64,000 nucleotides of DNA, from positions 12,278,001-12,342,000 of the forward strand of contig CM097885.1 of NCBI GenBank assembly GCA_044892525.1. Direction: 5' to 3'. The translations under genes and the position numbers were made by a program. Each line of letters starts with the position of its first letter. Position 1 is the first letter of the stretch. This document shows, piece by piece, positions 1 through 61,572 of this stretch. The stretch comes from Schmidtea polychroa. Taxonomy: Eukaryota. The notes under the pieces are model-generated. The model saw only the letters and a program-made list of their open reading frames with translations. It was not told the origin of the DNA and did not search any database.

Positions 1-3000
1 AGACAGAATAATGATATCAAAGCGTCAATAAGTGAAGGCAATTGAACACGAAGATTGCAACAATCAAGAAGTAGGAGACAAGACGAGAACAATCATGGAA
101 CTGCAGGAAGAGATAAATGCAATACGACAACAATTAAACAATAAAAACACCGGTAAGTTATGTTTTTATCATAGTAAATTTGGGCATAGGGCGATGAAAT
201 GTCAACCGCCATGTGAATGGAATGCAAATCAGAACGACAACTATCAATCGGGGAAGTACAACAGAGAGAAATATCAAAATTTCGAACCGTCAAACATATC
301 CTCAAGGAACAACAACAACAATTTCAACAAAAACAGCAACTTCAACAAAAACGGTAACTTCAACAGCAACAACCACAGAGAGAACCAGGGAAACGAGAGA
401 AGGTTTCATTGAACCCGAACAGTGAAACCTACAAAATCATATCCTCTTTCTCGGGACAAAACAACTCACAAATATTCGAAATACCAGCAATCATAAATGG
501 AGAACAAATTGACTTTCTCATAGATACAGGCGCCATCTCAGCATCCTTCCCGCAAACCGTTTCAAGCCTGATAGAAATGGAGAACATCGATCTTTAGTAT
601 CCGCCAACAATTCATTAATCACATACCACGGGCAGAAAACGATTGAATTTACTATTGAAGGATTCAGAACTAAATTTATATGGTCTTTTGCTATAGCCGG
701 CATATCTCGTTCAATTTTAGGTGCAGACTTCCTGGCCCATCACAAAATCGATGTTAGTTGTCATTCCAGATCAATTTGTTGCCCTAGCAGTAACGAAAGA
801 ACAGAAGCGCGGAGAAGCCAATGTGCCAAGATCTGTGCTACAATCAACAAAGAAACCACATTAACCACGAAACTACAAATTATCACCAATGGTTCCCCTG
901 TAGCTCAAAGACAAAGACCACTTTTTGGAGAAAAATTAGTTGCAACAAAGAAAGAGTTTGACAGACTCTTAAATGAAGGTGTGAGTCGGCCAAACAAGAG
1001 TGACTGGGCATCTCCATTAGTAGTGGTTAAGAAGCCGGATGGGTCATGGCGGCCTTGTGGAGACTACAGAATGTTAAATGAAATAACCCAGCCTGACAGA
1101 TATCCACTTCCAAGAATTCAAGATTTACTGAACAAGATAAACAACCCTCATGTATTCACTAAATTAGATTTGGAAAAGGCATATCATCAAATTCCGATTT
1201 GTGACGGAGACATTTCAAAGACAGCAGTCATAACACCTTTTGGATTGTTCGAATATACGAAGATGCCTTTTGGACTTCGAAACGCATCTCAAACGTTTCA
1301 GAGACAAATGGACAACGTACTCCGAGAACATCAGGAGCATACCTTATCCTATATTGATGATGTTCTGATATTCTCCAAGACTGAAGCAGAGCATAAAGAA
1401 CACGTGGCAAGGGTGATGGCCAGTATTCAAGCCGCTGGTCTCACAATCAACCAGAGCAAATGCGAATTCCAAACCGAAAAGGTAAACTTTTTGGGTTTTG
1501 AATTAACAAAACAAGGAATAAAACCCTCTGAAGAACGCACGTTGGCAATTAGCAATTTAAAGAAGCCAACTAACAGTCAAGATTTACGACGTTTCATTGG
1601 TGGCATCGGCTATTATCACTGGCTAATTCCAAGGCTGTCAGATACACTGAGTCCACTGCATGACTTGTTACAAGAGTCGGTCAATAAAAAGGAAGATCTC
1701 TTATGGCAAGACTGCCATACACACGCTTTATTGAGTGCCAAAAATTCGGTACGTGAAATCAGCAACGTTTCATATCCTAACCCGTCCAAGCCATTACTAT
1801 TATGCACTGACGCATCTTCTAAAGCAATTGGAGCAAGTCTAAGTCAAATCAACGAAGAAAATAAATCATTTCCAATTGCTTTCTTTTCGAGGAAATTAAA
1901 TCTAACCGAACAGAAGTATTCTACCTTTGACAGGGAGTTACTGGCAATATTCTTATCTATAAAACATTTTAAGCATTTCTTAGACGGTTCTCATTTCACA
2001 GTCATGACGGACCACAAACCTTTACTACGAGCTAGACATATGAAAGATCCATCGCCAAGGCAATGGCGAATAATCGAATACCTTGATCAATTTGATTTCA
2101 CCATCGAATTCATCAAAGGGGAAGATAATGTAGTCGCCGATCTCTTGTCCAGACCATGCAGTAATCAAAACCTAATCAAAAAACGTTGGAAATTAATTTC
2201 GTCGAATTCACGAAAGAAAGGTTAAAAGAAGAACAAAGGAAAGATCAGACCTTATCTATGCAAGTCTCCAGTTATGTAGTACTACGGATGACATTCTCAT
2301 TGACAATTCTACGGTGGAAACCAGAGTAATACTGCCAAAAATATTCCGACATCAAGAATTTCTAAGAATTCATAACATATCGCATCCAGCATCCAAACCA
2401 ACGATAGAACTGATCAAGGCGAGATATGTGTGGCCTCAGATGAAAAGCGACATCAGAGAGTGGTGTAGACAATGTCAAAGATGTCAAAGTGCAAAAATAA
2501 CAAGACACACACATGCTCCTTTAGGTACCATAGAAACCAAAGGAAGGTTCATTACAGTCCATCTAGATATAGTGGGTCCTCTTCCGAGTGTCGATAACAA
2601 GAGATATATCATGACAATGATAGACCGAGGAACGTCATGGGTTGAAGCAATTTCTATATATGATGTCACAGCTAATATGATCATAAGAACATTTGAAAGA
2701 GAGTGGATCAGTCGCTTTGGTGTTCCAGAAATTGTCATAACAGATCAAGGAACACAATTTGAATCAGAAAAATTCTCCAATTTCTGCAAGGTAATGGGAA
2801 TCGAAAGGAGGCGAACAACAGCCTATCACCCTCAATCCAATGGGAAGATAGAAAGATGGCACAGAGCCATGAAAAACTCAATAAGAGCCACATCAGAAGA
2901 CTCCTCCAAGATGTGGGCTCATGATCTCCCCAAGATTCTACTCAGTCTAAGAAACTGCACGAAGTCTAATGGGTCTCCATCAGCAGCGCAACTCACATTC

Positions 3001-3503
3001 GGTTGTCGAGCCAGATTACCCGGAGATTTTGTCATTAGTGAACCAACATTAACCGATATAGAAGAGAAGTTGACATCGATTCAAGAGGAAATCGACTCAC
3101 AACTAAGTAACAAACAAACAAGCCAACCAAAAGAACATAGTTTTGTAAGCAAACTATTAGTTCACTGCAAAAGAGTGTGGCTTCGATTTGAATTTAGGAA
3201 ATCGTTAGAAGATCCGTACACGGGACCATACGACGTCATAGAAAGACCCGATGACAATAAAACGGTAAAAATCAAAATCGGAGACCAAGTAAAGAATGTT
3301 AGCATCGACCGTCTCAAGCCATGGATTGGAACGGACGAATTGGCTCCGCAATCTTAAGGGGGAGTTGTGTTGGGACATTAATTAATTATTCAACACAATA
3401 ATTTTAAAACAATATTTAAAAACAATTTAATTTGTTTAAATATTGTGTTTGATATAAAATAAAATTTTTGGAACACCAAACACGTGTAACTATGAGTCTT
3501 ACA
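1..3503 (+). mobile_element. Ty3/Gypsy LTR retrotransposon, CsRn1-like, frameshifted; 5' end outside window
   Basis: Gag CHCC knuckle CFYHSKFGHRAMKCQPPC; protease FLIDTGA; RT YIDD and RNase H (TDAS, DRELLA) at 981-2225; integrase HHCC/DDE/GPY at 2314-3357; PPT aagggggag ~3356-3364; short 3' LTR ~3368-3503 (TGT...ACA). The pol frame is broken in several places. Confidence 0.93.
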
Positions 3504-3666
3504 ATGACATTATATGATTCTGTGACTTATTTGATGATTATTAACTTATTTATTAATTTTGTGTTTATAACAATGTATGTAGCCTATTATGTATTAGATA
3601 AATTCAGTGTCACAACAATGTCAAATGTCTAAAACATAATTTTAAGCACCAATAGGTGTAATGTTG

Positions 3667-3885
<219 letters not shown>

Positions 3886-4691
3886 AGTATGTATTATAAC
3901 AGATCATGAAGATAATGAAATAATTGATATTTTTGTACTAATCAATGTAATATTAAATTAAAATTCTTTAAAAGATGTTTGTGTTTTATTTATATAAGAA
4001 CCATCACGTTGAAATTCGAGTAACATCAACATATTATATACATTTTAATAAATTATATTCGATATTTACCAACATAATTAAATTTGGGACGCCAGATTCC
4101 TGCTTGGCACAGGGCGCAATTATAGCTCACTACGACCCTGTGTAGGACCACATATTTAATAACGGTCCGGCAGCTTTAGTCATTTTCCATTCATATTAAG
4201 TTTATTTCTAACAGATCAATTTAAACAACGCAACTATTTCCAAACAGACCATTGAAACTTTTTTTAAGATGTCATGATATTTGTTTCTCATTTTCTGTTT
4301 TTTTTATTTTCAAACGGTGCCGACTTTCAAAATCCCTATTAATTAATAAATTAGTTAGTTTTATTGATTTCCTGCTATCCTCATCTCATTTTTGATTTTT
4401 TATTCATTATAATTTAAATAATTAAAACTGCTGCTTTTTACTTTTGTTTGTCTTTCCGATTCATTTTAAAATTATTTTGATAACTTTAATTTTTCTTTTT
4501 TAGATATTCCTAACATATTAAATTTTTATATTTTTTTACACACATAATGAAAAATGCACATAAACATTTCAAATGAATTGATTTCCAATTTGAAATCGAG
4601 ATAAATTACTATTTATTAGTTTAAGTGTTTAAATATATTCAATAAGCGATGTTTTGTTGTGGTAATTCTTGTGGACTTTCATTATTTTATT

Positions 4692-5149
4692 ATGAGTGTC
4701 AAGGTTGTTGTGACTTATTGGTAAGATTGATTTCTAATATGGGCATTTTATTAATTTTATTTATTTTAATTATATAGTGGCTCATGAGGTTATGGAAGCA
4801 AGGTAATCGGTTAAACATTGGATAGGTAAATGAATTATATAATTTCTAGTTTCAGAGCTTGAAGAAAGATCTGGAACTTGAATTTCCAAACAAACTAACC
4901 ATTGTAAGTTTTTGTATTTTTCCTTTGGGTTAAATTTATTTTCTTTCCAAGACTTCGACTTCAACTCCGACCAAAACTGGATGGTTTGAAGTAGAAGTAA
5001 ATGGTAAACTGATTCATTCGAAAAAGGTATTACAGTGGATTTTTATTTCATGCTTATGTGTTTTATTTAAGAATGGCGATGAATTTGTTGATAACGACAA
5101 AAAATTACAAAAGATCTTCGATGAGATAGCTAAAGCATTGAAACAATGA
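4692..5149 (+). CDS. SELENOW: Selenoprotein W paralog A, copy 1 (86 aa, Sec13)
   Basis: GT-AG exons 4692-4720, 4778-4802, 4850-4903, 4952-5026, 5072-5149 give MSVKVVVTYCGSUGYGSKFQSLKKDLELEFPNKLTITSTSTPTKTGWFEVEVNGKLIHSKKNGDEFVDNDKKLQKIFDEIAKALKQ. In-frame TGA at 4785-4787 sits in CxxU; Rdx motif TGxFEV present. Confidence 0.95.
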
Positions 5150-5181
5150 ACATTTTTAGTTTTTAAATAGTTTTATTTTGT

Positions 5182-5249
5182 ATTGCCAACTCGATGAAAA
5201 TTGTTGTTAAAAATCATTGATTTGCAGCGATTTGATGTTTTCTGGTAAT
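5182..5249 (+). promoter_or_regulatory. SECIS element (type II, AUGA core) of SelW-A copy 1
   Basis: Helix I attgcca/tggtaat; core ATGA 5194-5197 and TGAT 5233-5236; helix II aattgttgt/gcagcgatt; apical AA plus mini-stem aaatc/gattt. Confidence 0.88.
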
Positions 5250-6157
5250 CAATAGATTTGTTAGGCTTTTACCAAATGTTTTTGGAATATTATTTATTTA
5301 TTATCTTATTCAATTAATTATTTATTCACACTTTGAACTTATCTCTAAATCTGAATGTTTACACTAATGTTACTAGGAAGCCGCCATTTTGAATTTATAT
5401 TCATGTTTTAAATATGATTTTGAGAAATTTATTTAATTATGTTTAGGTTATTAATTTATTAAGATCTTGAAAAATATTAATTTTAAAATTATTAGAAAAT
5501 GAGAGGTGGGCAGCGAGTTGGCGAATAAGGTAATCGCCTTGGGCCCCACACGAGCCCATAGGGAGCCAACGTTTTCAGAAAAACCCCTCTTTGTAATCAA
5601 TATCAGCATTTACTTATTAAACCAAAATAAATATTCAAAAATAGAAATAAGATAATCAAAATATCCATTCTCGACATGACCTTTCCCATCATCTCATTTA
5701 CATCTGACCCGTTTTCAAATTCTAATTCGATGATTTCTTGATTTTGAATTTTCAATAAAGCTTTTTTCAATTATATTGAATTTATCACAGGCTTATCACT
5801 ACGCCAGACTAAGTGCTATTGATAATTGTGTAGAATAAAAAGTGTTATTGAAAGTAGTGGAAAGAGAGATTGTTATATTAAAGTATGTGGTTAATAAAAT
5901 TGTAATTGTGGTGATTTCGAATAAACGTTTTTGTGTTGGACTGTACGATTAATTTAACTTACGACACCAAGGAGTTAGATATTGATAACGACATTCATAA
6001 ATACCCAATAATTATGCAATCTTCAATATCTTTCTGAATATAAAACAAATTATTGATCGATAGTCTAAAAAGTAATGAAGATAAAGGAAATGTCTCTCCG
6101 TGTATAATCAATAACAATAAGAACAATAAAGACAAATTATGAATACTATTTATTGGT

Positions 6158-6224
6158 AGCTAAATAACATCAAATTATTGAAAATCAAAAAAGATTTTTA
6201 TCAATAACCATCACTGAATTAGCT
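6158..6224 (-). promoter_or_regulatory. SECIS element (GUGA core) of SelW-B copy 1
   Basis: Reverse complement of 15583-15649. Confidence 0.85.
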
Positions 6225-6269
6225 CTCAATTCTATAACTAAAACTAAGATTTTAGACCACTACAAATGT

Positions 6270-6725
6270 TTATTTCAAGGCCTCTGTAACGGCATCGTAG
6301 ATTTTCTTCTTCTTTTCATTATTATCAACGAAGCCATCGCCGTTCTACAGATTTTATTTATCCAAAATATTCTATATGAAAATTCCAACCTTTTTTGAAT
6401 GAACAAGAGTTCCATTAACTTCAACCTCGAACCATCCGGTTTGCTTTGGAGTGGCACTCGATGTCTGAAATCGGAAACCAAATGTAAACATTCAATTACT
6501 TAAAAATTACTGACAAAAGTTAATTTCTGAGGAAACTTAAGCTCCAGATCCTTTTTAAAGCTCTGAAACTAAATAAATTTTTTTCAAAAGTGCTGCTAAA
6601 AATAATTATATATTTCTTTACCTTAGACGAGTATCCTCAGGCACCGCTTGATTTGAATAAACAATTAATTGAATTTTAATTAAATTACAAAATTACCAGT
6701 AAACCACATTTATTTTCACAGACAT
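6270..6725 (-). CDS. SELENOW: Selenoprotein W paralog B, copy 1 (85 aa, Sec13)
   Basis: Mirror of 15082-15537. Sec TGA at 6637-6639 (tca on +). Intron-1 acceptor is AAG here and CAG in the other arm. Confidence 0.93.
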
Positions 6726-7848
6726 TTTATAGTAGCAAATATTTTACAATAAGATAACAAAATTTAAACTAGTTTGTTGTTAAATTTATTATATAATTAT
6801 TATTTGAGTTACTGATTGGCTTTTATTTCTATTCATTTAAACAATTAATTCTATAGGTTAAATATAAATTCTCTATTTCGTTTCTCTATTGTTTAAAACA
6901 CACAGAAAATCGTTAAGTTACTTCATTTAAACAAAAATGATGTTTAGTCTGTATAATGTCAGTATTAAATCATTTTTAATATTATATGAAAACATTGGTG
7001 CAATTGTATTATAGTTCAATATAACAAATAATCATTGAATAAAATTTACGGCAAAATATTCAAACTGTTAGAATTATAATTTTAATGTGTTAAAATAATT
7101 GATAGAAACGTGGACCCCAGCTAAACACGAATCTTCAACTATCATGAATTGTTTTGGTGAAATTTGGGGCCCCGTTGTTTTTATTTGCGATACTTCCCAC
7201 CAATATTTTGTTAAATATAAATTTTGTTTAATTGATAATTACATAATTTTTAGATATCTGTTTTAATCGATGATTATGTCAAAGATTTTAATATTTTATA
7301 GGAGTTGTTGATCTCCACGCTTCAAATGAAATACTTGTTTTAATAATGTGATAAAGTCATTGCCAATTTGAAATTATTCTTTAAGGGCGTTATTTTGGAA
7401 TTTATTTTGGAACAAATCAATGCTTCTTGGTGCATAGCAGAACAATTCCTCGCAGACATACACACACGCACGCACACGCATATAGCAACAGCACTGCAAT
7501 TCAATAAAAATGCTGCTTTATTGCTATTGTTAACGATAAATTATTTTAGAATATTTATGATTAAATTTTTCTTTTTGTGTCAAGCTATTTTATTTAACCA
7601 GAAATGATAAAATTAACATTAAATTGATTATAAAAATGGAATAAAATTGTAAATTAAATAATGGAAGACTGAGCATAATCAACAAGAAATTAATTAGGAA
7701 ATTTAGGTTCAAAATGGAGTTCATCGGTTTCAAGATTTTTATGCTAAAGAAATGGACATATTTATATTTGAAACTCATCTTAAATTTGATATTATAAAAC
7801 CACCAGACAATTTACAACTAGACCTAATTGATTTGCAAATAATTTTAA

Positions 7849-8264
7849 CCACTTAATATACCGTATTTTAGCGCATATAACGCGCGCGGTATCTGATTAC
7901 AATAAACAATAAAACCGATGGTAGGGTTACTGTCACATCATAAAAATATTTCCACTGGCAATGCCGCCACGTGTAAAATATAAATCATAAAGCGCGCACC
8001 CACAGATACCGCGCATGGGGGGTGCACGGTTTGTAAAAATGCGTATAACGCGCGCGTTATATGCGCTAAAATACGGTACACATTTATTTTGAATTTTGTG
8101 TCTTTACTGAAATAAACATATAAAAAATAATATAATAAAGAAAGTAATTCAAAAAAATTAAATAATTAAACAATTCAAACAACACGTTATAAACACGCTA
8201 TACGTAAATATCATAAATAAATATAATGTTCGCCCGTCTATGTCACGGCACGTACATTAAGTGG
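7849..8264. mobile_element. Non-autonomous piggyBac-type element
   Basis: TTAA|CCACTTAAT ... ATTAAGTGG|TTAA: terminal inverted repeats with TTAA target duplication. Confidence 0.75.
7861..8076. mobile_element. Tc1/mariner-pogo-type MITE
   Basis: Perfect TIR ccgtattttagcgcatataacgcgcg / cgcgcgttatatgcgctaaaatacgg, flanked by TA. Confidence 0.9.
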
Positions 8265-9217
8265 TTAATGAAAATTATTTAATTGCATTTTATTCAAATC
8301 TACCAGAAAACAAATTTCCCAATTTAAGAAATATCAATGATTTGTATCTTTTCAAGAAACTATTTATGCGAACAAACATTTTCAAGAATGAATTACATAA
8401 AATCGCAATATAGAACGAGGTTGACGGATGAAAATTTACAACACTCGTTAAGGATCTCAGTATCCCAAACAGAACCGGACTTAAATGAATTAACAGAAAA
8501 TATTCAAGAACAAAAAGCACATTAAATTTTAATAAATGAATAAACTGAAAAATTTGTTATTTTCATATTTTCCCTATACATATGTAATTAAAATTTTATT
8601 TTTTTCCTTTTTGAGAGTTGAAAAATTTTTGTTCTCTGACATTATTGTTATTATAGCATGTTAAAAATAATATATTTTTTCTATTTATTTTTAATAATAT
8701 TTATACTCGTTTATGGTATGAAAGCGCTATTTAAGATACATTTGAATGTGCGACCCACCTAAAAGATTTATTTTGAAAATTGCCTGTCTTCCGAAAAAGT
8801 TTGCCGACCCCTGATCTAGAAAATTACACTTAATTATTTCCTCGGGAATCCTAAATCAATATTTGAGGGTTTTCTGATTCTTTTAATTTGTTTACCCTTG
8901 AATAGGGCTCAAAATATTCCCTCTTTTATCTTATTATCACGTTTCCTTCAGCGCTCGGGCTTTCCATTACCGATTAATTAATTTTAATTAATTTGTCTTT
9001 TCGAATTAACTTTCCCTGTGAACACCTTATTAAATTTTCATTATAATTTCTGAACTCATCTATCAATTTGGCGTTTAATTGATAATTACATAATTTTTAG
9101 ATATATGTTTTAATCGATGATTATGTCAAAGATTTAAATATTTTATAGGAGTTGTTGATCTCTATGCTTCAAATGAAAAACTTGTTCTAATAATGTGATA
9201 AAGTCAGTTGATGGTTG

Positions 9218-9422
9218 TGTCACCGCTAGATCACATTCCCCCGTGTAAATTTAAAAAAAAAATTCAAGGTCAAATTTTAAACAAAGACCATGACTCATCA
9301 AGGTCATTTCAAGGTCGTGTGTCTCATCGCGATGACTCATCAAGGTCATATTATTATTTTTCAAAATATTATTATTTTATTATTATTTTTCAAAAATATT
9401 ATTAATTGATCCAGCGGTGACA
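9218..9422. mobile_element. Small MITE-like element
   Basis: Inverted repeat tgtcaccgctagatca / tgatccagcggtgaca; internal caaggtc repeats. Confidence 0.6.
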
Positions 9423-9963
9423 TACTATTAAAAAATATAAGATAAATGAGAATTTTTCATAAAAATTATAAAAATAAACCTCCTTTCATTTTGAAGTAAT
9501 AAAATATCAAATTAATTAAATAAAAACGAAACTTGTTATTAAATTTTATAGAATATTTCCTACAAAGAAACGTAGCCTGGACGGTTGTGAGAGACCATTT
9601 GGGTTTCCTAGAATATACTTCTTTATACATAGATCCTAATCTCAACGACTCTTTGATCCCTTCATAAATAAACGACGTACTGATAAATCTGTCAGATAAT
9701 ATCCCAATTAATCACCTATAAATTTATTATTATTACCGAAAAATTTCCTAATTAATTTCTTGTTGATTATGCTCAGTCTTCCATTATTTTAATTTTAATT
9801 TTATTCCATTTTTTATAATCAATTTAAAGTTAATTTTATCATTTCTGGTTAAATAAAATAGCTTGACACAAAAAGAAAATTGTTATCATAAATATTCTAA
9901 AATAATTTATCGTTAACAATAGCAATAAAGCAGCATTTTTATTGAATTGCAGTGCTGTTGCTA

Positions 9964-10872
9964 CACCAAACACCACTGAGATACGTTCTCTATAGTGGTG
10001 GTTGGCGTGTAAAATCACTCACCGATTTATTTATCATCATCATCAGCAAATCAAGCAACAATTTATCATGTACTGAATTATGTTTTTTTAATCAATGTTT
10101 TTAAAATCAATTATGTTTTTTGGAAATTTATTTTAGCAATTTTACAAATGGCTTACAAGTAATTTTTTTTATTTAAAGTAAATTTTAAGATTTGAATTTT
10201 GATCCATATGGATATGAGATCATTATTCAAGTTCTTAAATATTACTTTTAATCAACATTATAAATTATTTTTAATTAATTTTCAGGCTTTTTTAGGAATT
10301 TTATGTCTTTTATTAAAGTATTTTGGAATTATTTCGAAAAAATGTGAGTCCGATATATTTTTAATTATAATTAATTAATTAAATAAATCAATCAATGTAT
10401 TTTTTTAAAACATTTTGGGAAAAATCGCTGATTAGAATAATTTTTTTAATTTTTGTAGTTTTTTCTCTGAGCTCAATATGAGGGGATTCTTAAAGGAAAT
10501 CAAATCTGGAGTAAAAATATTTTGAACCAAATTCATCTGCTCTTGATATTTTCATTAAAAATATAATTTAAAAAATTTTCAACGATCTTTTTTTTCTAAA
10601 AATTGTCTAAAATAGAATTATTATAGAAACGTATCTCATCGTTACAATTTTACGAATCAAAAGTTTGTATGTATTTTTTATTATGTGTTGTGCTTGTGTG
10701 CATTTTTTAATTTTCCTTCCACTTTTCAGATTTCTATAATATAAGATGTATCTCATTGAGCTATAAATGAGAACATCAACGTGAAATCAAAGTAAGTATG
10801 TATGTTTCTATAATGTAAGATTATTGATTTTTTTGTTATATTATAGGAAATGCATCTCAGTGGTGTTTGGTG
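9964..10872. mobile_element. TA-flanked TIR element (Tc1/mariner-type MITE)
   Basis: TA|CACCAAACACCACTGAGAT ... ATCTCAGTGGTGTTTGGTG|TA. The empty site is visible in the paralogous sequence near 14322. A related 3' end lies at ~53200-53483. Confidence 0.88.
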
Positions 10873-11184
10873 TATTTGCGTGTGTGTATGTCTGCGAGGA
10901 ATTGTTTTGCACCGAGAAGCCTTGATTTGTGTGTGCATCTGAATCAGTGCTGGTGCTATTGGAATCAATTGAAGCATCCATAGATCATCACTGCCGTACG
11001 GACGAGGCTTTAACATTGACATTTAATTTGAAAATTATTAAATAATATAATTGTGACTTATTATTATTATTATTATTATTATTGAGATTGACAACGACTA
11101 TCTTATAGTCGAAAATTTTTTCATTAAATACATTATTTGCAGCAAAAGGCTTAAATTATCATTTTATTGTTTTATTATTATTAT

Positions 11185-13535
11185 TGTTAGCCGCAACAAC
11201 GTCGAATTCATGTTCAATTTCCATAATTAATAAAATAACCAAATAAAATTACTAAATTAATTTTATTCACAAAACTGCGCTTTTTTGTAATATTCAAACA
11301 ATTTGTTCGAGGCTTTTTTATTATTGTAATTTTGATGCTGATTTCAATGCTGGTTTAATTTATTTTAATATTTAATATATTTTTATATTTTAAACTTACT
11401 TTAATTTATTAATTTAAATGTTTATATAAAAATTTATGTAATCTGATAAATACAATTTAAATGTTTATTAGTAATTCTCAGTTTTAACTTAAACGTGAAT
11501 TCTACCCTTTCATCTCTCTTCTTTAAATTCTTTAATCTTTTCAATATTCCTGATTTAAGACTTCCCACTTTTATCTCTCAGCATATAACTATGATCGTGT
11601 ATTCGTTTTGTTACCGTGTACGGTCCTTCATATCTATCTTGATCCGTGTTTCGTTTTTCTCGTTTGATTAACACTTTGTCTCCAATATCCAACCTCCTTG
11701 CAGTTGTTGTTTCCTCATTTCGTCTTTTACTTTCAATTTTCAATTGGATATCATTCCTGTTGATTCTACTATCATTATACCATTTCGATCTATCAATTTT
11801 CCTACCAAAAATAATTTCAGCTGGGCTTACTCCCGTTGTTTTTTCGATTGTTGCGTTGAGTGTATATTCTATATCTGGGATAAGGTCTGCCCAGTCTTTT
11901 TTTTCCGTCTTTCAGTGATGCATTAATAAAATCTCTTATTGTCCGGAATTGTCTTTCGATTATACCATTCGTATTATGATGATATGGGCTCGAATAGACT
12001 ATCTCGAACCCTGCATTTTTACTTATATTCTTTATGCTATTAGCTTCGAATGTTTTCCCGCAATCTACATGTAGTTCTTTGGGTGCCCCAAATTTTAGAA
12101 TCCAGTTGTTTAACAATATCTTCCCAATTGTCTTTTCATCCTGTTTATTTATAGCTGTTAACGAGATGTATTTGGTGTAATGGTCGATTATTGCGCAAAT
12201 ATATCTTTTCCTGTAAATTTTTCTTTCATTGAGCGACATATGTCCATATATATTTTCTCGAAGGGTTCGGATGCTTCATGTACTTTTGGTTTCTCTTTCA
12301 TCTTTGTAGTTACAACTTTAACTTTTGGGCACGATTCGCAATTTGATATTGTCGTTTTCACTTCCTTTATTAGATCTCTCATATCAAAATTGTTTTGTAT
12401 GTATTTGATAACTTTGTCAACTCCAGCATGGCACAGTAACATATGTGTTTTGTTAATCATTTCTCTTCTTTTGCTCTCTGGTATCCATATTCTTTTATCT
12501 TTGGTATAAATAATATTATCCTCTATTATAAACCTTCCACTTGTTTGCGTTCTTATTTTATTTTTAATCTCCTCTATTTCATCACTATTCATTTGCCATT
12601 CCTCTCCTTTGCCTTCAGTCATTATATTTAACAATCTGGTTTTCATTCTTCCCATTTTAGGATTATCGTGTTCCATAAGGCATTGTACACATGTGCCACA
12701 CGTTTTCCTCGATAACATGTCTGCGTTAGTATGTAGTGTACCCTTTCTAAATTCCTTGTGTATATCAAGGCTACTTAAATAGTTTATCCAGGTCTGGAAT
12801 TGAGCTGTAATTGGTTTCTTCGTGGTTAGCATAAATTTTATTGCTTTATGATCTGTACGTAGTGCAAATCTTTTTCCATATAAATAGTGATTGAAATGCC
12901 GACAAAAATAATATATAGCCAGAAGTTACTTTCTTGTAATACAATAGCCTCTTTCGTGGTCATTCATCGCATGTGAGCCATATGCGATAACTTGCTCATA
13001 TCCCATGTCATTCTTCTGTGATAAGACTGCGCCGATTATATCGAAACTTGCATCCGTATCCAGTATGAATTCTTTCTTAAAATCAGGAAATACGATAATC
13101 GGTGCGGTTATTAATGCCAACTTCATATTCTCAAAAGCCTGCTCACAATTTTTATTCCATATTATTTTGTCGCTATTTTTACCACATATACTCTCTAAAG
13201 CTCTTGCCTTCTTTGCGTATTCTTTAATAAATTTTCGATAATAGTTGCAAATACCCAAGAAACTCCTTAAATTTTTCACACATTTCGGCCTTTAAAATAA
13301 TTGAATAGCTTCAATTTTGCTCTGATCCGTTTGGATGCCGTCTCTATTTATAATATGGCCTAAGAATTTCACTTCGCTTTTCAGTATTTGACATTTTTCA
13401 GGATTAATTCTTAGTTTAGCTTCTGCGATTTTCTGCAATACTCTTTCCAGCAGTTTATAGTGTTCTTCCATTGTGTTAGTAAAAATTAATATATCGTCCA
13501 GATAAACCATTACCCCCTCTTTCCATAAATCCTTT
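11185..13535 (-). mobile_element. 5'-truncated Ty3/Gypsy element (RT-RNaseH-INT plus 3' LTR)
   Basis: RT YLDD; RNase H DTDAS; integrase (H..C..C, IIDHYTKY, PYHHNTNG, EGPY), all frameshifted; PPT gaagagaga next to LTR 11185-11512 (TG...CA). Confidence 0.92.
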
Positions 13536-13789
13536 AATCCTTTAAATCCAGCATGACCTCTAATATGCAACTCAACAAATCGCTCGAACATTAGTTGACC
13601 TATATAGATGCCCTTGCCCATTAATGCAAACAAAACTCGTTTTTGTTACCATAGCTCGATTCTCAACCGCCACAAATCCTATTCAAAAACGTGATGTGAC
13701 GAAACTGCACGGAGTCCTTAGTTCCAAGGTGTCAACAGAAGACACAAACTCGATTGTAAAGATGAAAATTCAGATACTTTTCATAGAAA

Positions 13790-14110
13790 TTACTTTATTT
13801 TTAATTAATTTTATTTTATTTTCAACATAGTCTTTTTTTAGATCGATACATTTTGTCCAACGATTTTCCAATTATTTTAACCAGCCCAAAAAAACGCTTT
13901 TCTCCGAATCTGAAAAATAATTCTCTGTTTCGGTTATGACCTCTTAATCTATGTATAATCATTATGTATAATCATTTTCTCATGATATCAACATGTTAGG
14001 CATCACTTACTAAGAGGTTTTCATCATTAAAAAAATTGGCTTTGCCATTTTGTCCACATTCGGGTCCACTTATAAATGTGAGTAAATATTTTCACAAAAG
14101 AAATTTATTT
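13790..14110 (-). mobile_element. Mariner transposase remnant
   Basis: Minus strand gives EVITETENYF and LENRWTKCIDLKKDYVE, typical of the mariner C-terminus. Confidence 0.7.
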
Positions 14111-15081
14111 TAAGCAAAAACAGAAGCATTTTGATCCTAAATTTTCGAATTAATTTACAATTTTATTCCATTTTTATAATCAATTTAATGTTAATTTTAT
14201 CATTTCTGGTTAAATAAAATAGCTTGACACAAAAAGAAAAATTTAATCATAAATATTCTAAAATAATTTATCGTTAACAATAGCAATAAAGCAGCATTTT
14301 TATTGAATTGCAGTGCTGTTGCTATATGCGTGTGCGTGCGTGTGTGTATGTCTGCGAGGAATTGTTCTGCTATGCACCAAGAAGCATTGATTTGTTCCAA
14401 AATAAATTCCAAAATAACGCCCTTAAAGAATAATTTCAAATTGGCAATGACTTTATCACATTATTAAAACAAGTATTTCATTTGAAGCGTGGAGATCAAC
14501 AACTCCTATAAAATATTAAAATCTTTGACATAATCATCGATTAAAACAGATATCTAAAAATTATGTAATTATCAATTAAACAAAATTTATATTTAACAAA
14601 ATATTGGTGGGAAGTATCGCAAATAAAAACAACGGGGCCCCAAATTTCACCAAAACAATTCATGATAGTTGAAGATTCGTGTTTAGCTGGGGTCCACGTT
14701 TCTATCAATTATTTTAACACATTAAAATTATAATTCTAACAGTTTGAATATTTTGCCGTAAATTTTATTCAATGATTATTTGTTATATTGAACTATAATA
14801 CAATTGCACCAATGTTTTCATATAATATTAAAAATGATTTAATACTGACATTATACAGACTAAACATCATTTTTGTTTAAATGAAGTAACTTAACGATTT
14901 TCTGTGTGTTTTAAACAATAGAGAAACGAAATAGAGAATTTATATTTAACCTATAGAATTAATTGTTTAAATGAATAGAAATAAAAGCCAATCAGTAACT
15001 CATATAATAATTATATAATAAATTTAACAGCAAACTAGTTTAAATTTTGTTATCTTATTGTAAAATATTTGCTACTATAAA

Positions 15082-15537
15082 ATGTCTGTGAAAATAAATG
15101 TGGTTTACTGGTAATTTTGTAATTTAATTAAAATTCAATTAATTGTTTATTCAAATCCAGCGGTGCCTGAGGATACTCGTCTAAGGTAAAGAAATATATA
15201 ATTATTTTTAGCAGCACTTTTGAAAAAAATTTATTTAGTTTCAGAGCTTTAAAAAGGATCTGGAGCTTAAGTTTCCTCAGAAATTAACTTTTGTCAGTAA
15301 TTTTTAAGTAATTGAATGTTTACATTTGGTTTCCGATTTCAGACATCGAGTGCCACTCCAAAGCAAACCGGATGGTTCGAGGTTGAAGTTAATGGAACTC
15401 TTGTTCATTCAAAAAAGGTTGGAATTTTCATATAGAATATTTTGGATAAATAAAATCTGTAGAACGGCGATGGCTTCGTTGATAATAATGAAAAGAAGAA
15501 GAAAATCTACGATGCCGTTACAGAGGCCTTGAAATAA
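15082..15537 (+). CDS. SELENOW: Selenoprotein W paralog B, copy 2 (85 aa, Sec13)
   Basis: Exons 15082-15110, 15161-15185, 15239-15292, 15343-15417, 15463-15537 give MSVKINVVYCGAUGYSSKFQSFKKDLELKFPQKLTFTSSATPKQTGWFEVEVNGTLVHSKKNGDGFVDNNEKKKKIYDAVTEALK. TGA at 15168-15170. Confidence 0.95.
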
Positions 15538-15582
15538 ACATTTGTAGTGGTCTAAAATCTTAGTTTTAGTTATAGAATTGAG

Positions 15583-15649
15583 AGCTAATTCAGTGATGGT
15601 TATTGATAAAAATCTTTTTTGATTTTCAATAATTTGATGTTATTTAGCT
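15583..15649 (+). promoter_or_regulatory. SECIS element (type II, GUGA core) of SelW-B copy 2
   Basis: Helix I agctaa/ttagct; core GTGA 15593-15596 and TGAT 15635-15638; helix II ggttattga/tcaataatt; apical AA plus aaatc/gattt mini-stem. Confidence 0.85.
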
Positions 15650-16556
15650 ACCAATAAATAGTATTCATAATTTGTCTTTATTGTTCTTATTGTTATTGAT
15701 TATACACGGAGAGACATTTCCTTTATCTTCATTACTTTTTAGACTATCGATCAATAATTTGTTTTATATTCAGAAAGATATTGAAGATTGCATAATTATT
15801 GGGTATTTATGAATGTCGTTATCAATATCTAACTCCTTGGTGTCGTAAGTTAAATTAATCGTACAGTCCAACACAAAAACGTTTATTCGAAATCACCACA
15901 ATTACAATTTTATTAACCACATACTTTAATATAACAATCTCTCTTTCCACTACTTTCAATAACACTTTTTATTCTACACAATTATCAATAGCACTTAGTC
16001 TGGCGTAGTGATAAGCCTGTGATAAATTCAATATAATTGAAAAAAGCTTTATTGAAAATTCAAAATCAAGAAATCATCGAATTAGAATTTGAAAACGGGT
16101 CAGATGTAAATGAGATGATGGGAAAGGTCATGTCGAGAATGGATATTTTGATTATCTTATTTCTATTTTTGAATATTTATTTTGGTTTAATAAGCAATGC
16201 TGATATTGATTACAAAGAGGGGTTTTTCTGAAAACGTTGGCTCCCTATGGGCTCGTGTGGGGCCCAAGGCGATTACCTTATTCGCCAACTCGCTGCCCAC
16301 CTCTCATTTTCTAATAATTTTAAAATTAATATTTTTCAAGATCTTAATAAATTAATAACCTAAACATAATTAAATAAATTTCTCAAAATCATATTTAAAA
16401 CATGAATATAAATTCAAAATGGCGGCTTCCTAGTAACATTAGTGTAAACATTCAGATTTAGAGATAAGTTCAAAGTGTGAATAAATAATTAATTGAATAA
16501 GATAATAAATAAATAATATTCCAAAAACATTTGGTAAAAGCCTAACAAATCTATTG

Positions 16557-16624
16557 ATTACCAGAAAACATCAAATCGCTGCAAATCAATGATTTTTAAC
16601 AACAATTTTCATCGAGTTGGCAAT
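16557..16624 (-). promoter_or_regulatory. SECIS element (AUGA core) of SelW-A copy 2
   Basis: Reverse complement of 5182-5249. Confidence 0.88.
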
Positions 16625-16656
16625 ACAAAATAAAACTATTTAAAAACTAAAAATGT

Positions 16657-17114
16657 TCATTGTTTCAATGCTTTAGCTATCTCATCGAAGATCTTTTGTA
16701 ATTTTTTGTCGTTATCAACAAATTCATCGCCATTCTTAAATAAAACACATAAGCATGAAATAAAAATCCACTGTAATACCTTTTTCGAATGAATCAGTTT
16801 ACCATTTACTTCTACTTCAAACCATCCAGTTTTGGTCGGAGTTGAAGTCGAAGTCTTGGAAAGAAAATAAATTTAACCCAAAGGAAAAATACAAAAACTT
16901 ACAATGGTTAGTTTGTTTGGAAATTCAAGTTCCAGATCTTTCTTCAAGCTCTGAAACTAGAAATTATATAATTCATTTACCTATCCAATGTTTAACCGAT
17001 TACCTTGCTTCCATAACCTCATGAGCCACTATATAATTAAAATAAATAAAATTAATAAAATGCCCATATTAGAAATCAATCTTACCAATAAGTCACAACA
17101 ACCTTGACACTCAT
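16657..17114 (-). CDS. SELENOW: Selenoprotein W paralog A, copy 2 (86 aa, Sec13)
   Basis: Mirror of 4692-5149; Sec TGA at 17019-17021. Confidence 0.94.
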
Positions 17115-18422
17115 AATAAAATAATGAAAGTCCACAAGAATTACCACAACAAAACATCGCTTATTGAATATATTTAAACACTTAAACTAATAAATAGTAA
17201 TTTATCTCGATTTCAAATTGGAAATCAATTCATTTGAAATGTTTATGTGCATTTTTCATTATGTGTGTAAAAAAATATAAAAATTTAATATGTTAGGAAT
17301 ATCTAAAATAGAAAAATTAAAGTTATCAAAATAATTTTAAAATGAATCGGAAAGACAAACAAAAGTAAAAAGCAGCAGTTTTAATTATTTAAATTATAAT
17401 GAATAAAAAATCAAAAATGAGATGAGGATAGCAGGAAATCAATAAAACTAACTAATTTATTAATTAATAGGGATTTTGAAAGTCGGCACCGTTTGAAAAT
17501 AAAAAAAACAGAAAATGAGAAACAAATATCATGACATCTTAAAAAAAGTTTCAATGATCTGTTTGGAAATAGTTGCGTTGTTTAAATTGATCTGTTAGAA
17601 ATAAACTTAATATGAATGGAAAATGACTAAAGCTGCCGGACCGTTATTAAATATGTGATCCTACACAGGGTCGTAGTGAGCTATAATTGCGCCCTGTGCC
17701 AAGCAGGAATCTGGCGTCCCAAATTTAATTATGTTGGTAAATATCGAATATAATTTATTAAAATGTATATAATATGTTGAGGTTACTCGAATTTCAACGT
17801 GATGGTTCTTATATAAATAAAACACAAACAACTTTTAAAGAATTTTAATTTAACACACTGTTGACCGGCAATTTTGGGTTTTGGCATGAAAACACGAGTT
17901 AACGCGTGATCGGTCAATAATATGCTAATATAACACTGATTAGTTCCAAAAAATATCAATTACCTTGTACATTTAGTTATATAATATTTAGGAGCTGAGA
18001 TGTATATGTGTATAGCTAAATGCAGTTTCCTGAGGTCGGATATGTTTTATAAGTATTCTCAAAATTATGTTGTAATATCAATTGCTGAATTTATAACTCT
18101 TCAGAGTATATATAATTTTATGGGTGGTTTGACCGAGGAAAACGTTGGTTTGTATTTTTCCTTCATTAACAACTTTCTATTTTTAAAAGTACAGTCAACA
18201 GTTACTATTTTTAGTATCCTCGAGATTTCCAACATCTCTGACGTTAGAAGTGTAATCTCATGTTGTAGAGTACTCGTTATAATCGTTTTATTATATAATT
18301 GTTCTTAATTATCTTCATAATCTGTTATAATGCATTCTACTTCCTCAACATACTTTTTGTTTAAATCAGTGGGTATAATTTAATGTAATTCCCATATTCA
18401 TAACCCTTAGTATTTATTATCA

Positions 18423-18525
<103 letters not shown>

Positions 18526-18950
18526 TCAACATTACACTTATTGGTACTTAAAAATATGTTTTAGACATTTAACATTGTTGTGACACTGAGTGTATCTAAT
18601 ACATAATAGGCTACATACATTGTTATAAACACAAAATTAATAAACAAGTTAATAATCATCAAATAAGTCACAGAATGGTCATTGAAATGAATCATATAAT
18701 ATCATAAAGTATCATTATTAGAATATTATCTCTGTAGTTCATGATTATTCTTGTACATTTATTTTTGGTTTAAGAAATATATTCATTTTTAATTTCTTAC
18801 ATTTAGGCTAAAATTATTTTGAGTTCAAAAAAAATAAAACAGTACAAATCATTAAAATGTTTTATAGTTGTACAGACATTACTACTTCTATATTTTGGTA
18901 GAGCGCTACTCAGCTTAACTAGCTACTGTTCATATTGTTGTGAGAATAAG

Positions 18951-19142
18951 TTAGGGTTAGAGTTAGGGTTAGGGTTAGGGTTAGGGTTAGGGTTAGGGTT
19001 AGGGTTAGGGTTAGGGTTAGGGTTAGGGTTAGGGTTAGGGTTAGGGTTAGGGTTAGGGTTAGGGTTAGGGTTAGGGTTAGGGTTAGGGTTAGGGTTAGGG
19101 TTAGGGTTAGGGTTAGGGTTAGGGTTAGGGTTAGGGTTAGGG
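18951..19142 (+). repeat. Interstitial telomeric array (TTAGGG)32
   Basis: 192 bp, 32 units, one TTAGAG variant. Confidence 0.98.
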
Positions 19143-21082
19143 TACATCGTATTCATTTAGCCACACCGTATTCAATTGAAACAATTAATAAGCTTGCAAA
19201 CATAGATTGTTGCATACCTTAACTGATATTTTCAATGTTTCATTACAATCTCAATATTCAAACAAATATTAATTATGATATAAAACTATTTTTAAATTTA
19301 AAATCAAACAATTATTTTAAATCTTATAACTTATTAAATTTTTGTAGAAATTAGAAAAATTTATTCCATCTTGAAATTTGCCTTCATCATGCCCCCCATC
19401 ATGCTTTATGTCCTGCGCCATGAACCAGGGGCTCATTCCCTTTATCCAGCACGGGCCCTACAGCAAAATTCCATAAGAAAATAATTAAATTAGTCAAATA
19501 ATCAGATATATCTAACCCATAACAGTATGCGAGTTCTTTTCTATGTGCAGGACGTAGTCTAGAATTCCTTTCTTAAAAATATAAATATCTTCAAATTTGT
19601 ATAACACACTTGTGATTAATAAAAATCTCTAAATAAAGAATTCCCTCCAGTACAGTTGCCATACTGCTTACAACAAAGACCTATTAAGTCATCTCTTTGA
19701 CATTTTTATGAGATGTCATTAATGATTGAAAATTAATATTAAAGATGTGAAAATTGACACGTGAATTAAGAGAAGTGAAACTGTTAAGTTAAAGTTTGGA
19801 CAACCGAGTCCACTGTGTACAGATATCTAAACCAGAAATATTAAATAGTGTTTATGGAAAATTGTTATGCAAATTTGTAATTGTTTAATCAGTTTGTGTA
19901 GCTGTAATCAATAAAACTGAGAATAACTTGTAATTGTGCTAATCAATAAATTTTAATTATTTAGGGTTCATTGTTATTGTTATAAATAGATTTTCAATTT
20001 CCCTTAATAAACAAGAATATTTTATATCATTAGACTGACTATATAAGATGATATATAAATTTCATTAAAAATTTTAATTTAATATTTAATTATATATATT
20101 TGTTATTATGTATTTGTATGTTATTCGACTCGTAATATATTGTTCTATAAGGTGACATCAAGATAATGTCAAAAAATAGATTTCGAATTTTTTCCTTTTA
20201 CATGCAACTAAAGCTAAAATCAAAATAATTTTATGTTGGTAAATTTGGCTTTAAATTCTTTACAATGTGATATTAAATTCATTGATATTGTCTAATCAAT
20301 ATTTTTAAGCTGTTCTGTTGCGTAAAAATTATAGTTAGGAAAGATAAAAAGGATAGTCTTGACTGACCTAGAAGTTGCGCGGGTGCATGACGCACAATGA
20401 GTTTGAGGTACTGTAATAAATTACACAAAAAAATTAACTTCCCGCGCATCTAAATTAAGTTAAATTAGAAATACAAATGTTAGGCAAAACTGAATTTAGC
20501 CCCACATACCAATACCATGATCGGTATGCGTCGGAAAATACAGCACTAAGTAAAGTTAAAATATAAACACATAAGACATCAAGTAAACTTACACAACACC
20601 GAAATGATAAAACACAGAAATAAAATGAAACAGGTGTTGGGGCTTAAGGGGTGTGTCATTTGAATGTTCTAGGGTTGCATATGGATTCGGTATCGACTCT
20701 TCCCTAAACGCCTTCATGATTATTTTACTTTTTACCATCTATGCACCCACGGCAACGACCATTTTGGTAATGTACACAGTGCCTGAAAATCAATGAACAG
20801 GTGAGCTCTACTACTAAAACTACTGGGCATTACATTACATAAATCAACCCGTGCCTTCTCTTTCGCCTCTTCACAATGCCTACTCCTCTAGAAAAAAATC
20901 ATATTAACATATAATTATTAACGACAACATTATCATTTTTAGGTTGTGTCTGAAAACATTGTTAAATTTTGAAGAAATGAATAATGAAAAAAACAAAAAA
21001 TAAAAATGAAATCAGACGTTAAAATTTATTAACTTAAAATTACTTTAAACAAAAAAGAGCTTACCACAAATGCATAAAATTC

Positions 21083-22142: not shown

Positions 22143-26693
<4,551 letters not shown>

Positions 26694-41936: not shown

Positions 41937-49619
<7,683 letters not shown>

Positions 49620-53863: not shown

Positions 53864-61572
<7,709 letters not shown>

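What the first reader, a model, noticed from the sequence alone, without database searches (positions are those of the whole stretch)
4692..17114. Four cryptic selenoprotein W genes (UGA recoding plus SECIS) missed by the ORF track
Seen: four five-exon genes with 25-78 nt exons splice through GT-AG sites into complete 85/86-aa proteins with Cys10-x-x-UGA13, each followed by a SECIS-shaped hairpin. Known: CxxU and TGxFEV define SelW/Rdx selenoproteins. Arrangement is A(+) B(-) ... B(+) A(-). Paralogs A and B differ at 25 of 85 positions by manual alignment and share all intron positions. Inference: a dosage-amplified redox locus that standard annotation would truncate or miss.
Basis: partly seen in the sequence, partly recalled or inferred. 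Interest (0 to 1): 0.88.

Follow-up and report, generated by a model that had tools for sequence, protein, structure and literature searches.

The report
Selenoprotein W pair in inverted duplication
Two related selenoprotein W genes of an invertebrate animal are both spliced and polyadenylated, carry an in-frame UGA that is likely read as selenocysteine, and appear twice because of a near-identical 3.7-kb inverted duplication that is likely real; the family is well known and often has several copies in invertebrates.

Summary
Observation confirmed. Four five-exon frames give 86-aa (A) and 85-aa (B) proteins with Cys10-x-x-UGA13, arranged A(+) B(-) ... B(+) A(-); A and B differ at 25 of 85 positions. 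All 8 introns are joined in RNA-like contigs of two studies, and poly(A) tails lie downstream of both SECIS hairpins. Rfam SECIS_1 matches both hairpins, below its gathering score; all 19 pairs hold between A and B, 4 by double change. The proteins are SelW1-type Rdx members. There are two distinct genes, not four: an old tail-to-tail pair under purifying selection, copied in 3.7-kb arms 99.73% identical with identical coding sequence. Contig depths and junctions favour a real duplication (about 70-75%) but do not exclude a haplotype artefact. Selenocysteine insertion is inferred; dosage amplification is untested, since RNA cannot tell the arms apart. Multiple and clustered SelW genes are in print for planarian, limpet and zebrafish. 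One oddity: A has Glu65 where 73 of 73 homologues have Gly. The scan noted other SelW-family genes on other DNA, not this locus.

The parts
4692..5149 (+). SelW paralog A, copy 1: exons 4692-4720, 4778-4802, 4850-4903, 4952-5026, 5072-5149; 86 aa; TGA codon 13 at 4785-4787; ends in a second TGA; Glu65 replaces a Gly found in all 73 full-length homologues
   Evidence: (4 of 4 introns joined)
5185..5246 (+). SECIS of A1, AUGA/AA/UGA form with a small apical helix, in the 3' UTR; poly(A) added at 5269, 5271 and 5308
   Evidence: Rfam SECIS_1 24.4 bits, E 0.09, gathering score 35; fold; poly(A) loose ends in X7
6159..6223 (-). SECIS of B1, GUGA/AA/UGA form with a small apical helix; poly(A) added at 6137
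   Evidence: Rfam SECIS_1 27.8 bits, E 0.011
6270..6725 (-). SelW paralog B, copy 1: exons 6725-6697, 6646-6622, 6568-6515, 6464-6390, 6344-6270; 85 aa; TGA codon 13 at 6639-6637; ends in TAA
   Evidence: 4 of 4 introns joined
3953..7657 (+). Left arm of the inverted duplication; holds A1 and B1 with about 740 and 930 nt upstream of their start codons
   Evidence: 3705 columns, 10 differences, none in exons or SECIS
7658..14149 (.). 6.5-kb spacer without a gap: older 86-96% copies of pieces of the arm's inner end (9061-9206, 9741-9963, 10877-10930), a broken LTR retrotransposon pol region (about 11555-13645, minus strand) and a high-copy element cut off at 14128
   Evidence: (no N)
14150..17853 (-). 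Right arm of the inverted duplication; at its inner end similarity to the left side resumes for 23 nt (20 alike) beyond a 36-nt gap
15082..15537 (+). SelW paralog B, copy 2; coding sequence identical to B1; TGA codon 13 at 15168-15170
15584..15648 (+). SECIS of B2, identical to that of B1
16560..16621 (-). SECIS of A2, identical to that of A1
16657..17114 (-). SelW paralog A, copy 2; coding sequence identical to A1
3517..3886 (+). Left flank segment ending in an AAT array, inverted homologue of 18414-18676; 145 of 152 non-repeat bases alike, less than the arms
18414..18676 (-). Right flank segment with a TTA array, separated from the right arm by about 560 nt mostly without counterpart on the left

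Best explanation
Two old SelW1-type paralogs sit tail to tail and are both transcribed, spliced and polyadenylated; their codon-13 UGA is likely decoded as selenocysteine through the 3' UTR SECIS, giving small thioredoxin-like CxxU proteins that are predicted to act as cytosolic thiol oxidoreductases, and a recent, likely real 3.7-kb inverted duplication copied the pair. Shown: gene structure, splicing, poly(A) sites downstream of each SECIS, retention of UGA13 in transcripts, family membership, purifying selection between A and B, near identity of the arms. Inferred from the known eukaryotic pathway: SBP2 binds the kink-turn core and eEFSec delivers Sec-tRNA at UGA13 (266 nt in A and 274 nt in B upstream of the SECIS core in the spliced message), while A's terminal UGA, only 44 nt from the core, is read as stop. 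Inferred by analogy with mammalian SELENOW: redox cycling of Cys10/Sec13 against glutathione and partners such as 14-3-3. The second copy most likely arose by a local template-switch or break-repair event in a repeat-rich, rearrangement-prone region and is too young to show whether extra dose is selected.
For: Gene models and TGA13. Each of 8 introns joined in both studies, no other letter listed at either UGA13, poly(A) at 5269/5271/5308 and 6137. Pfam Rdx above cut-off from exon 4 alone (23.8-24.0 bits vs 22.6); mouse SelW 2NPB the only structure hit (E 2.9e-05); profile of near homologues plus exons scores SelW 4.5e-31 vs MIEN1 2.3e-05. In 73 full-length homologues (of 113 compared) column 10 is Cys in 65 and column 13 is W in 54, C in 6, gap in 7; W is taken to be UGA read through by gene callers. 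SECIS: Rfam full-length matches; 19 of 19 pairs kept in A and B, 4 changed on both sides, 21-45% paired when slid. A vs B: pS 0.795, pN 0.183, 46 of 79 base differences at third positions; all 5 listed coding variants in other samples are synonymous (4 distinct sites). Duplication: no N in the window; arm contigs 1.69-1.74 times the depth of the right-flank contig in X3, X5, X6 and 1.8-2.9 times the median of chance-matching contigs in 4 of 4 runs; right outer junction bridged in 4 of 4 runs, X3 forks at 17830; older inverted pieces of the same arm end in the spacer. False duplications are mostly split by an assembly or depth gap (PMC9516828, passages).
Against: Both SECIS score under Rfam's gathering score (27.8 and 24.4 vs 35; none in the whole-window search); folding z only -1.18 and -2.22; the covariation shuffle is not significant with two sequences (35 of 500). 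No tRNA-Sec, SBP2 or eEFSec could be looked for, as no genome is held. The right inner junction 14149|14150 is not bridged in any listed row (table cut). A 2:1 arm-to-flank depth is also what a haplotype artefact gives, X3 fits 1:2:3 (spacer 21.5, flank 37.5, arm 60-67), and the tool warns that contig depth is no copy number. Several arm differences occur in both states among samples, as alleles would (15158, 17309, 17557). Absence of arm differences from exons and SECIS is expected by chance 18% of the time.
Confidence: 0.72

Rival explanations
1. The A/B selenoprotein pair is real but single: the two arms are two alleles of one locus that the assembler placed in inverted order, so the genome has two SelW genes here, not four.
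For: Arms differ by only 0.27%, far less than the 1.4-1.6% between the window and study P2; arm differences segregate among samples and some sample contigs carry mixed left/right states within 31 nt (16195-16197; 15003/15030); flanks beyond the arms stay homologous across indels; the right inner junction was not seen bridged. Heterotype false duplications on the same scaffold are common in long-read assemblies (PMC9516828, passages).
Against: No gap in the window; arm depth is 1.8-2.9 times that of chance-matching contigs in all 4 runs; the right flank would have to be at half dose in three separate samples of two studies; an assembler would have to turn round inside a 6.5-kb spacer.
Confidence: 0.2
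2. The locus is an older palindrome whose gene-bearing core is kept identical by arm-to-arm gene conversion, so the 99.7% identity understates its age and the four-gene state is shared across populations.
For: Identity drops at once beyond indels at both ends (145 of 152 outside, 20 of 23 inside); 5 of 10 arm differences lie in the outer 550 nt; in study P2 the gene-bearing core forms long high-depth contigs with 1.4-1.6% strain differences while the outer arm (17313-17498, from 17729) splits into half-depth contigs.
Against: The spread of differences does not depart from uniform (KS p 0.13); the flanking homology may be separate insertions of a repeat family; the contig assembler collapses small bubbles, so uniform P2 contigs do not show that P2's arms are alike; P2's half-depth contigs may be alleles. 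This reading overlaps the best explanation in everything but age.
Confidence: 0.15
3. UGA13 is a true stop: the genes are expressed pseudogenes or relics, or UGA is read as another residue.
For: SECIS below Rfam's gathering score; Sec machinery not checked; A also ends in UGA.
Against: Strong purifying selection downstream of codon 13 with saturated synonymous sites; compensatory change in both SECIS stems while introns have diverged to shuffle level; UGA sits at the family's Sec column; abundant spliced transcripts of both; transcripts of A run past the terminal UGA into a non-coding tail, as expected for a stop too close to the SECIS (PMC8659212, passage: at least 51-111 nt).
Confidence: 0.03

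Closest known systems
Selenoprotein W (SELENOW / SelW1), Rdx family, Pfam PF10262, TIGR02174; mouse structure PDB 2NPB
   Same: About 85 aa, N-terminal CxxU, tGxFEV motif (family definition in PMC10650576, passage), HSKK-x-GD stretch, 3' UTR SECIS; 57-64% identity of A to its eight best homologues; 7 of 43 hits read through a V...Q insert at the place of intron 4 (the query favoured such hits).
   Different: Two lineage-specific paralogs (sisters with SH-aLRT 95 in a quick tree of 75 rows); both lack the usual Gly-Glu at 38-39; A has Glu65 for a Gly in 73 of 73 homologues; the pair is repeated in a near-identical inverted duplication.
Expanded and clustered invertebrate SelW genes: Schmidtea mediterranea (six SelW, three of them SelW1), Lottia gigantea SelW1_a/SelW1_b (PMC3828610); zebrafish tandem SelW2a/b (PMC3316567); mixed-strand selenoprotein clusters in Branchiostoma and Trichoplax (PMC3473315)
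   Same: Several SelW copies in one genome, adjacent recent duplicates with shared exon layout, each with its own SECIS; GUGA_AA SECIS cores are reported in sponge and algae (PMC3473315).
   Different: Here an old divergent pair is nested in a 99.7% identical palindrome, all four copies intact, one paralog with AUGA and one with GUGA. The paper's sequences (figure only; no supplement readable) could not be compared, so identity with a published gene is not excluded by direct test.
SELENOW2 / MIEN1 (Rdx12) branch
   Same: Rdx fold and CxxU/CxxC motif.
   Different: Far weaker match (2LJK E 2.3e-05 vs 2NPB 4.5e-31 for the profile; not hit by the window query at E 1); named hits are selenoprotein W or W1.

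Membership tests
Rdx / SelW selenoproteins | N-terminal Cys-x-x-Sec motif encoded with an in-frame UGA | tested here: met
   Cys10-x-x-TGA13 in all four copies, aligned with the Sec column of homologues, retained in transcript contigs
Rdx / SelW selenoproteins | C-terminal tGxFE(I/V) motif and match to the family profile | tested here: met
   Motif at residues 45-50 in A and B; Pfam PF10262 above cut-off from exon 4 alone; TIGR02174 E 6.6e-07 and 9.2e-07, below its whole-protein cut-off because only a piece was scanned
Rdx / SelW selenoproteins | Thioredoxin-like fold | not tested
   No model was built; inferred from sequence likeness to 2NPB
Eukaryotic selenoprotein genes | SECIS element with RUGA core, apical AA and GA, inside the 3' UTR of the mRNA | tested here: met
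   Pattern, fold and pair conservation; upstream of poly(A) sites; Rfam SECIS_1 full-length but below gathering score
Eukaryotic selenoprotein genes | UGA at least 51-111 nt upstream of the SECIS | tested here: met
   266 nt (A) and 274 nt (B) from the exon lengths and the codon place; limit from PMC8659212 (passage)
Eukaryotic selenoprotein genes | Sec machinery (tRNA-Sec, SBP2, eEFSec, SPS2) in the genome | not testable with these tools
   No genome held; no tRNA gene in the window
Eukaryotic selenoprotein genes | Selenocysteine actually inserted in the protein | not testable with these tools
   Needs 75Se labelling, mass spectrometry or ribosome profiling
SelW1 subfamily (vs SelW2/MIEN1) | Closer to SELENOW than to SELENOW2/MIEN1 | tested here: met
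   Structure-bank scores and names of hits; the tree had no SelW2 outgroup, and the profile was built mainly from SelW1-like hits
True segmental inverted duplication | Both arms on one chromosome, all four junctions supported, doubled depth | tested here: inconclusive
   Depth ratio 1.7 to flank and 1.8-2.9 to chance contigs, right outer junction bridged in 4 of 4 runs, right inner junction not seen bridged

The most novel reading that the evidence does not exclude
A gene-bearing palindrome, homogenised by arm-to-arm gene conversion and shared between populations, maintains four working SelW genes of two specialised kinds: B is the conventional enzyme with a GUGA SECIS, while A, with Glu in place of an otherwise invariant Gly65, an AUGA SECIS and a UGA terminator 44 nt from that SECIS, has a changed partner surface or a selenium-dependent C-terminal read-through. 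It would be a natural side-by-side test of SECIS type, UGA spacing and SelW partner binding in one animal. I found no such arrangement for a selenoprotein gene in one search.
Probability: 0.13. Interest if true: 0.55.

Novelty: new member of a known kind. Interest (0 to 1): 0.3.

Why it matters
It adds two well-supported, expressed selenoprotein genes that were not among the listed hits of large protein collections (best listed homologue 64-66% identical), and shows SelW duplicating twice at one locus. SELENOW's substrates are still unsettled (PMC10650576, passage), so a natural paralog with Glu at an otherwise invariant Gly, and a paralog pair with AUGA and GUGA SECIS cores in one cell, are modest comparative tools. 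It does not change how selenocysteine recoding or SelW evolution is understood.

Tried and rejected
Whole-genome search: no genome held. Rfam at gathering scores: 0 matches in 64 kb. Word-indexed protein search with the exon 4-intron 4-exon 5 read-through: 2 candidates, none at E 0.001; the exhaustive search then gave 43 hits. My first automatic splice search missed B because the motif filter was too strict; the parse fixed it. A notebook entry and one search placed UGA13 two bases off; one search gives 4785-4787 and 15168-15170, and the distances quoted are corrected by 2 nt. Run search listed no holder on record as RNA; the runs guessed as RNA proved to hold spliced, polyadenylated contigs. 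Assigning transcripts to an arm: impossible, no arm difference lies in an exon. Selection on the arms and a gradient of differences: not significant (P 0.18; KS p 0.13). Shared upstream motif or intron likeness between A and B: none above shuffles for 4 of 4 introns. Further SelW copies in the window: none (tblastn). Naming the lineage: the neighbouring DRC2 exon is at most 64% identical to animal proteins of many phyla among the 120 listed of 712, so only 'an animal with motile-cilium genes, distant from those listed' can be said. The careful tree did not finish; the quick tree was used. One of the 7 background depths for X6 (joint at 15967) probably lies on the arm itself; leaving it out moves the ratio from 1.81 to about 1.84. 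The last line (neighbouring introns) used wrong coordinates and was ignored. Supplements of PMC3828610 could not be read; a search for the published SELENOW exon layout gave nothing usable. Earlier notes of this scan: none near or in this genome on selenoproteins.
Full report
Setting. The window is AT-rich (mostly 24-33% G+C), has no N and is full of transposon remains: LTR retrotransposon pol regions at 513-3357 and about 11555-13645, a gag frame and a DDE transposase piece. Neighbouring host genes include a nucleotide-sugar transporter, radial spoke protein 3 and DRC2. The DRC2 exon is at most 64% identical to animal proteins of many phyla among the 120 listed of 712 hits. The source is therefore an animal with motile-cilium genes; I could not place it more closely, and no genome is held.

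Check of the observation. Exons of 29, 25, 54, 75 and 78 nt from 4692 to 5149, joined over GT-AG introns of 57, 47, 48 and 45 nt, give an 86-codon frame with one internal TGA at codon 13 after Cys10 (gene A). Exons of 29, 25, 54, 75 and 75 nt with introns of 50, 53, 50 and 45 nt give an 85-codon frame of the same kind (gene B). Intron positions and phases are shared, and 25 of 85 residues differ. The order is A1(+) 4692-5149, B1(-) 6725-6270, B2(+) 15082-15537, A2(-) 17114-16657. A1 and A2 have identical coding sequence, as do B1 and B2, because 3953-7657 and 14150-17853 are inverted arms with 10 differences in 3705 columns. No further SelW copy lies in the window.

Transcripts. Four runs guessed to be RNA (three samples, two studies) were laid on 4560-6900. 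All 8 predicted introns are skipped with the predicted lengths and ends, each in both studies: X7 8 of 8, X9 4 of 8, X10 6 of 8, X11 6 of 8. X7 shows poly(A) at 5269, 5271 and 5308 for A and at 6137 for B, so both hairpins lie inside the 3' UTRs and the two convergent transcripts do not overlap. No other letter is listed at either UGA13. The DNA-like runs list no intron skips over the mirror arm. These are contigs: they show presence, not level or strand, and cannot tell copy 1 from copy 2, since none of the 10 arm differences is exonic.

SECIS. A consensus pattern (RUGA, AA 11-13 nt on, nine-pair stem, UGA) finds 4 sites in the window on both strands, one behind each gene, against 1 site in 30 block shuffles (written after seeing the hairpins). 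Rfam SECIS_1 matches both over the full model, at 24.4 bits (A, 5185-5246, E 0.09) and 27.8 bits (B, 6223-6159, E 0.011), the two lowest E-values of 6 matches in 2.3 kb but under the gathering score of 35; the whole-window search at gathering scores was blank. Both fold with a small apical helix, z -1.18 and -2.22. Between A and B all 19 pairs hold, 5 with a change on one side and 4 on both; slid controls pair 21-45%, while the shuffle control is not significant with two sequences (35 of 500). A has an AUGA core and B a GUGA core; GUGA_AA is reported as common in sponge and some algae and rare in the other invertebrates examined (PMC3473315, passages). UGA13 lies 266 nt (A) and 274 nt (B) upstream of the core in the spliced message. 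A's terminal UGA lies 44 nt upstream, under the 51-111 nt minimum quoted in PMC8659212 (passage), so it is predicted to stop; read-through would add Sec and six residues.

Family. Exon 4 alone passes the Pfam Rdx cut-off in A and B and matches TIGR02174. The only solved-structure hit of the window query is mouse selenoprotein W, 2NPB; a profile of ten near homologues plus six window exons scores 2NPB at 4.5e-31 and MIEN1 at 2.3e-05. Named hits of that profile are selenoprotein W or W1 or unnamed predictions (120 listed of 829). Of 113 proteins compared, 73 were full length; the best is 64% identical to A and 66% to B. In those 73, column 10 is Cys in 65 and column 13 is W in 54, C in 6 and a gap in 7; I take W to be UGA read through by gene callers. 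A and B are sisters (SH-aLRT 95, quick tree, 88 columns, no SelW2 outgroup), which points to duplication within this lineage. Both lack the usual Gly-Glu at 38-39, and A has Glu65 where 73 of 73 have Gly; contigs of X7, X9 and X10 cover that codon without other letters. Seven of 43 hits carry a V...Q insert at the place of intron 4, the mark of a read-through intron in the same position, though the query favoured such hits.

Selection. A and B differ at 79 of 255 coding bases, 46 at third positions; pS is 0.795 (saturated) and pN 0.183. Their introns align no better than shuffles (4 of 4) while the SECIS stems are kept. The five listed coding variants in other samples, at four distinct sites, are all synonymous (the variant table was cut by 61 rows, and one loose contig end in X10 hints at a Lys4 to Arg change). 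The pair is old and both members are maintained.

Is the second arm real? Four DNA-like runs (four samples, two studies) were laid on 13650-18400. Single arm contigs have depths of 60-67 (X3), 74-82 (X5) and 62-70 (X6) against 37.5, 45.6 and 37.1 for the contig on the right flank, ratios 1.69-1.74; against the median of 5-8 chance-matching contigs per run the ratios are 2.9, 2.4, 1.8 and 1.8. The right outer junction is bridged in 4 of 4 runs; X3 breaks at 17830, where the arms part, and carries the left-type continuation at the inner end. The right inner junction is not bridged in any listed row, and the tables were cut. Study P2 differs from the window by 1.4-1.6% over the arm. For a real duplication: no gap, the excess over background, half depth of the flank in three samples of two studies, a junction with a 36-nt gap and a cut-off repeat, and older 86-96% copies of the same arm end in the spacer. 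For an artefact: a 2:1 ratio is also expected if each flank belongs to one haplotype, some arm differences segregate among samples, and contig depth is by the tool's own warning no copy number. X3 also fits 1:2:3 for spacer, flank and arm, which would be a heterozygous duplication. False duplications are described as mostly separated by an assembly or depth gap (PMC9516828, passages). I put a real duplication, fixed or polymorphic, at 70-75%.

How it most likely works. Each gene is transcribed from its own promoter (each arm keeps about 740 and 930 nt upstream of the two start codons), spliced, and polyadenylated behind its SECIS (shown for A and B as kinds). SBP2 and eEFSec would recode UGA13 to Sec (inferred from the established eukaryotic pathway; machinery not checked). 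The product would be a 9-10 kDa thioredoxin-like protein with a Cys10/Sec13 redox pair; mammalian SELENOW binds glutathione and 14-3-3, and its exact function is stated to be unknown (PMC10650576, passages). History: an old inverted duplication made A and B; a much younger one copied both. Whether the extra copies raise dose is untested; the lack of coding differences between arms is expected by chance 18% of the time.

Rivals. A haplotype artefact (0.2) leaves two real genes. An older palindrome homogenised by gene conversion (0.15) is suggested by the sharp drop of identity beyond indels at both ends (145 of 152 outside; 20 of 23 inside) and by P2's outer arm splitting into half-depth contigs, but the spread of differences is not significantly uneven (KS p 0.13) and collapsed bubbles could mimic the pattern. 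A true stop at codon 13 (0.03) is at odds with the selection on everything downstream.

Comparison with what is known. It works like, and by the tested features is a member of, the SelW1 branch of the Rdx family. Expansion is in print: six SelW genes in Schmidtea mediterranea and adjacent recent SelW1 duplicates in Lottia gigantea (PMC3828610; I read parts 1-3 of 5, the whole main text; its alignment is a figure and no supplement was readable, so I could not compare sequences), tandem SelW2a/b in zebrafish (PMC3316567, passages), one to three SelW genes and mixed-strand selenoprotein clusters in six invertebrates (PMC3473315, passages). Misannotation of selenoprotein genes is general (PMC13134290, abstract and passages). 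One search for selenoprotein or SECIS with palindrome, inverted duplication and gene conversion returned a single unrelated paper (listing only); the library lacks most subscription journals. Earlier notes of this scan list SelW-family genes in other genomes but nothing at this place; they did not change my reading.

Verdict. A real, well-supported locus and a good catch from raw sequence, but an ordinary kind: new members of a known selenoprotein family, two distinct genes each probably present twice. Interest 0.3. The open points worth a look are the reality and age of the palindrome and the Glu65 of paralog A.

Noticed in passing
window 18950-19143: Interstitial telomere-type array of 32 TTAGGG units (98% matches), 1.1 kb outside the right arm; could be a scar of break repair near the duplication.
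   Followed up: no
window 33798-34451: Frame matching Pfam Monjiviricetes_fusion (E 1.4e-24), an endogenous viral-type fusion glycoprotein piece, probably part of a retroelement or an endogenous viral element.
   Followed up: no
window 5147-5149 (and mirror 16659-16657): Paralog A ends in UGA 44 nt upstream of its SECIS core, while B ends in UAA; read-through would add Sec plus six residues.
   Followed up: partly
window 5081-5083: Codon 65 of A is Glu where B and 73 of 73 full-length homologues have Gly; confirmed in transcript contigs.
   Followed up: partly
window 5027-5071: Intron 4 of A is 45 nt, in frame and free of stops, so retention would insert 15 residues; no retained form was listed.
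   Followed up: partly
window 9061-9206, 9741-9963, 10877-10930: Older copies (93%, 96%, 86%) of pieces of the arm's inner 500 nt lie in the spacer, two of them inverted, suggesting repeated local rearrangement or a repeat family.
   Followed up: partly
window 7860-8080 and 17850-17940: Short elements with terminal inverted repeats (MITE-like), read by eye; the second starts at the TTAA where the right arm ends.
   Followed up: no
window 22133-26693, 34791-35240, 42060-44502, 59380-59685: Host genes: nucleotide-sugar transporter with long AAT-array introns, radial spoke protein 3, DRC2/CCDC65, a GFO/IDH/MocA oxidoreductase piece.
   Followed up: no
window 15967-16001: Run X6 has a contig that skips 33 nt between the two 3' ends at about half the arm's depth, so one of its copies or alleles differs there.
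   Followed up: no
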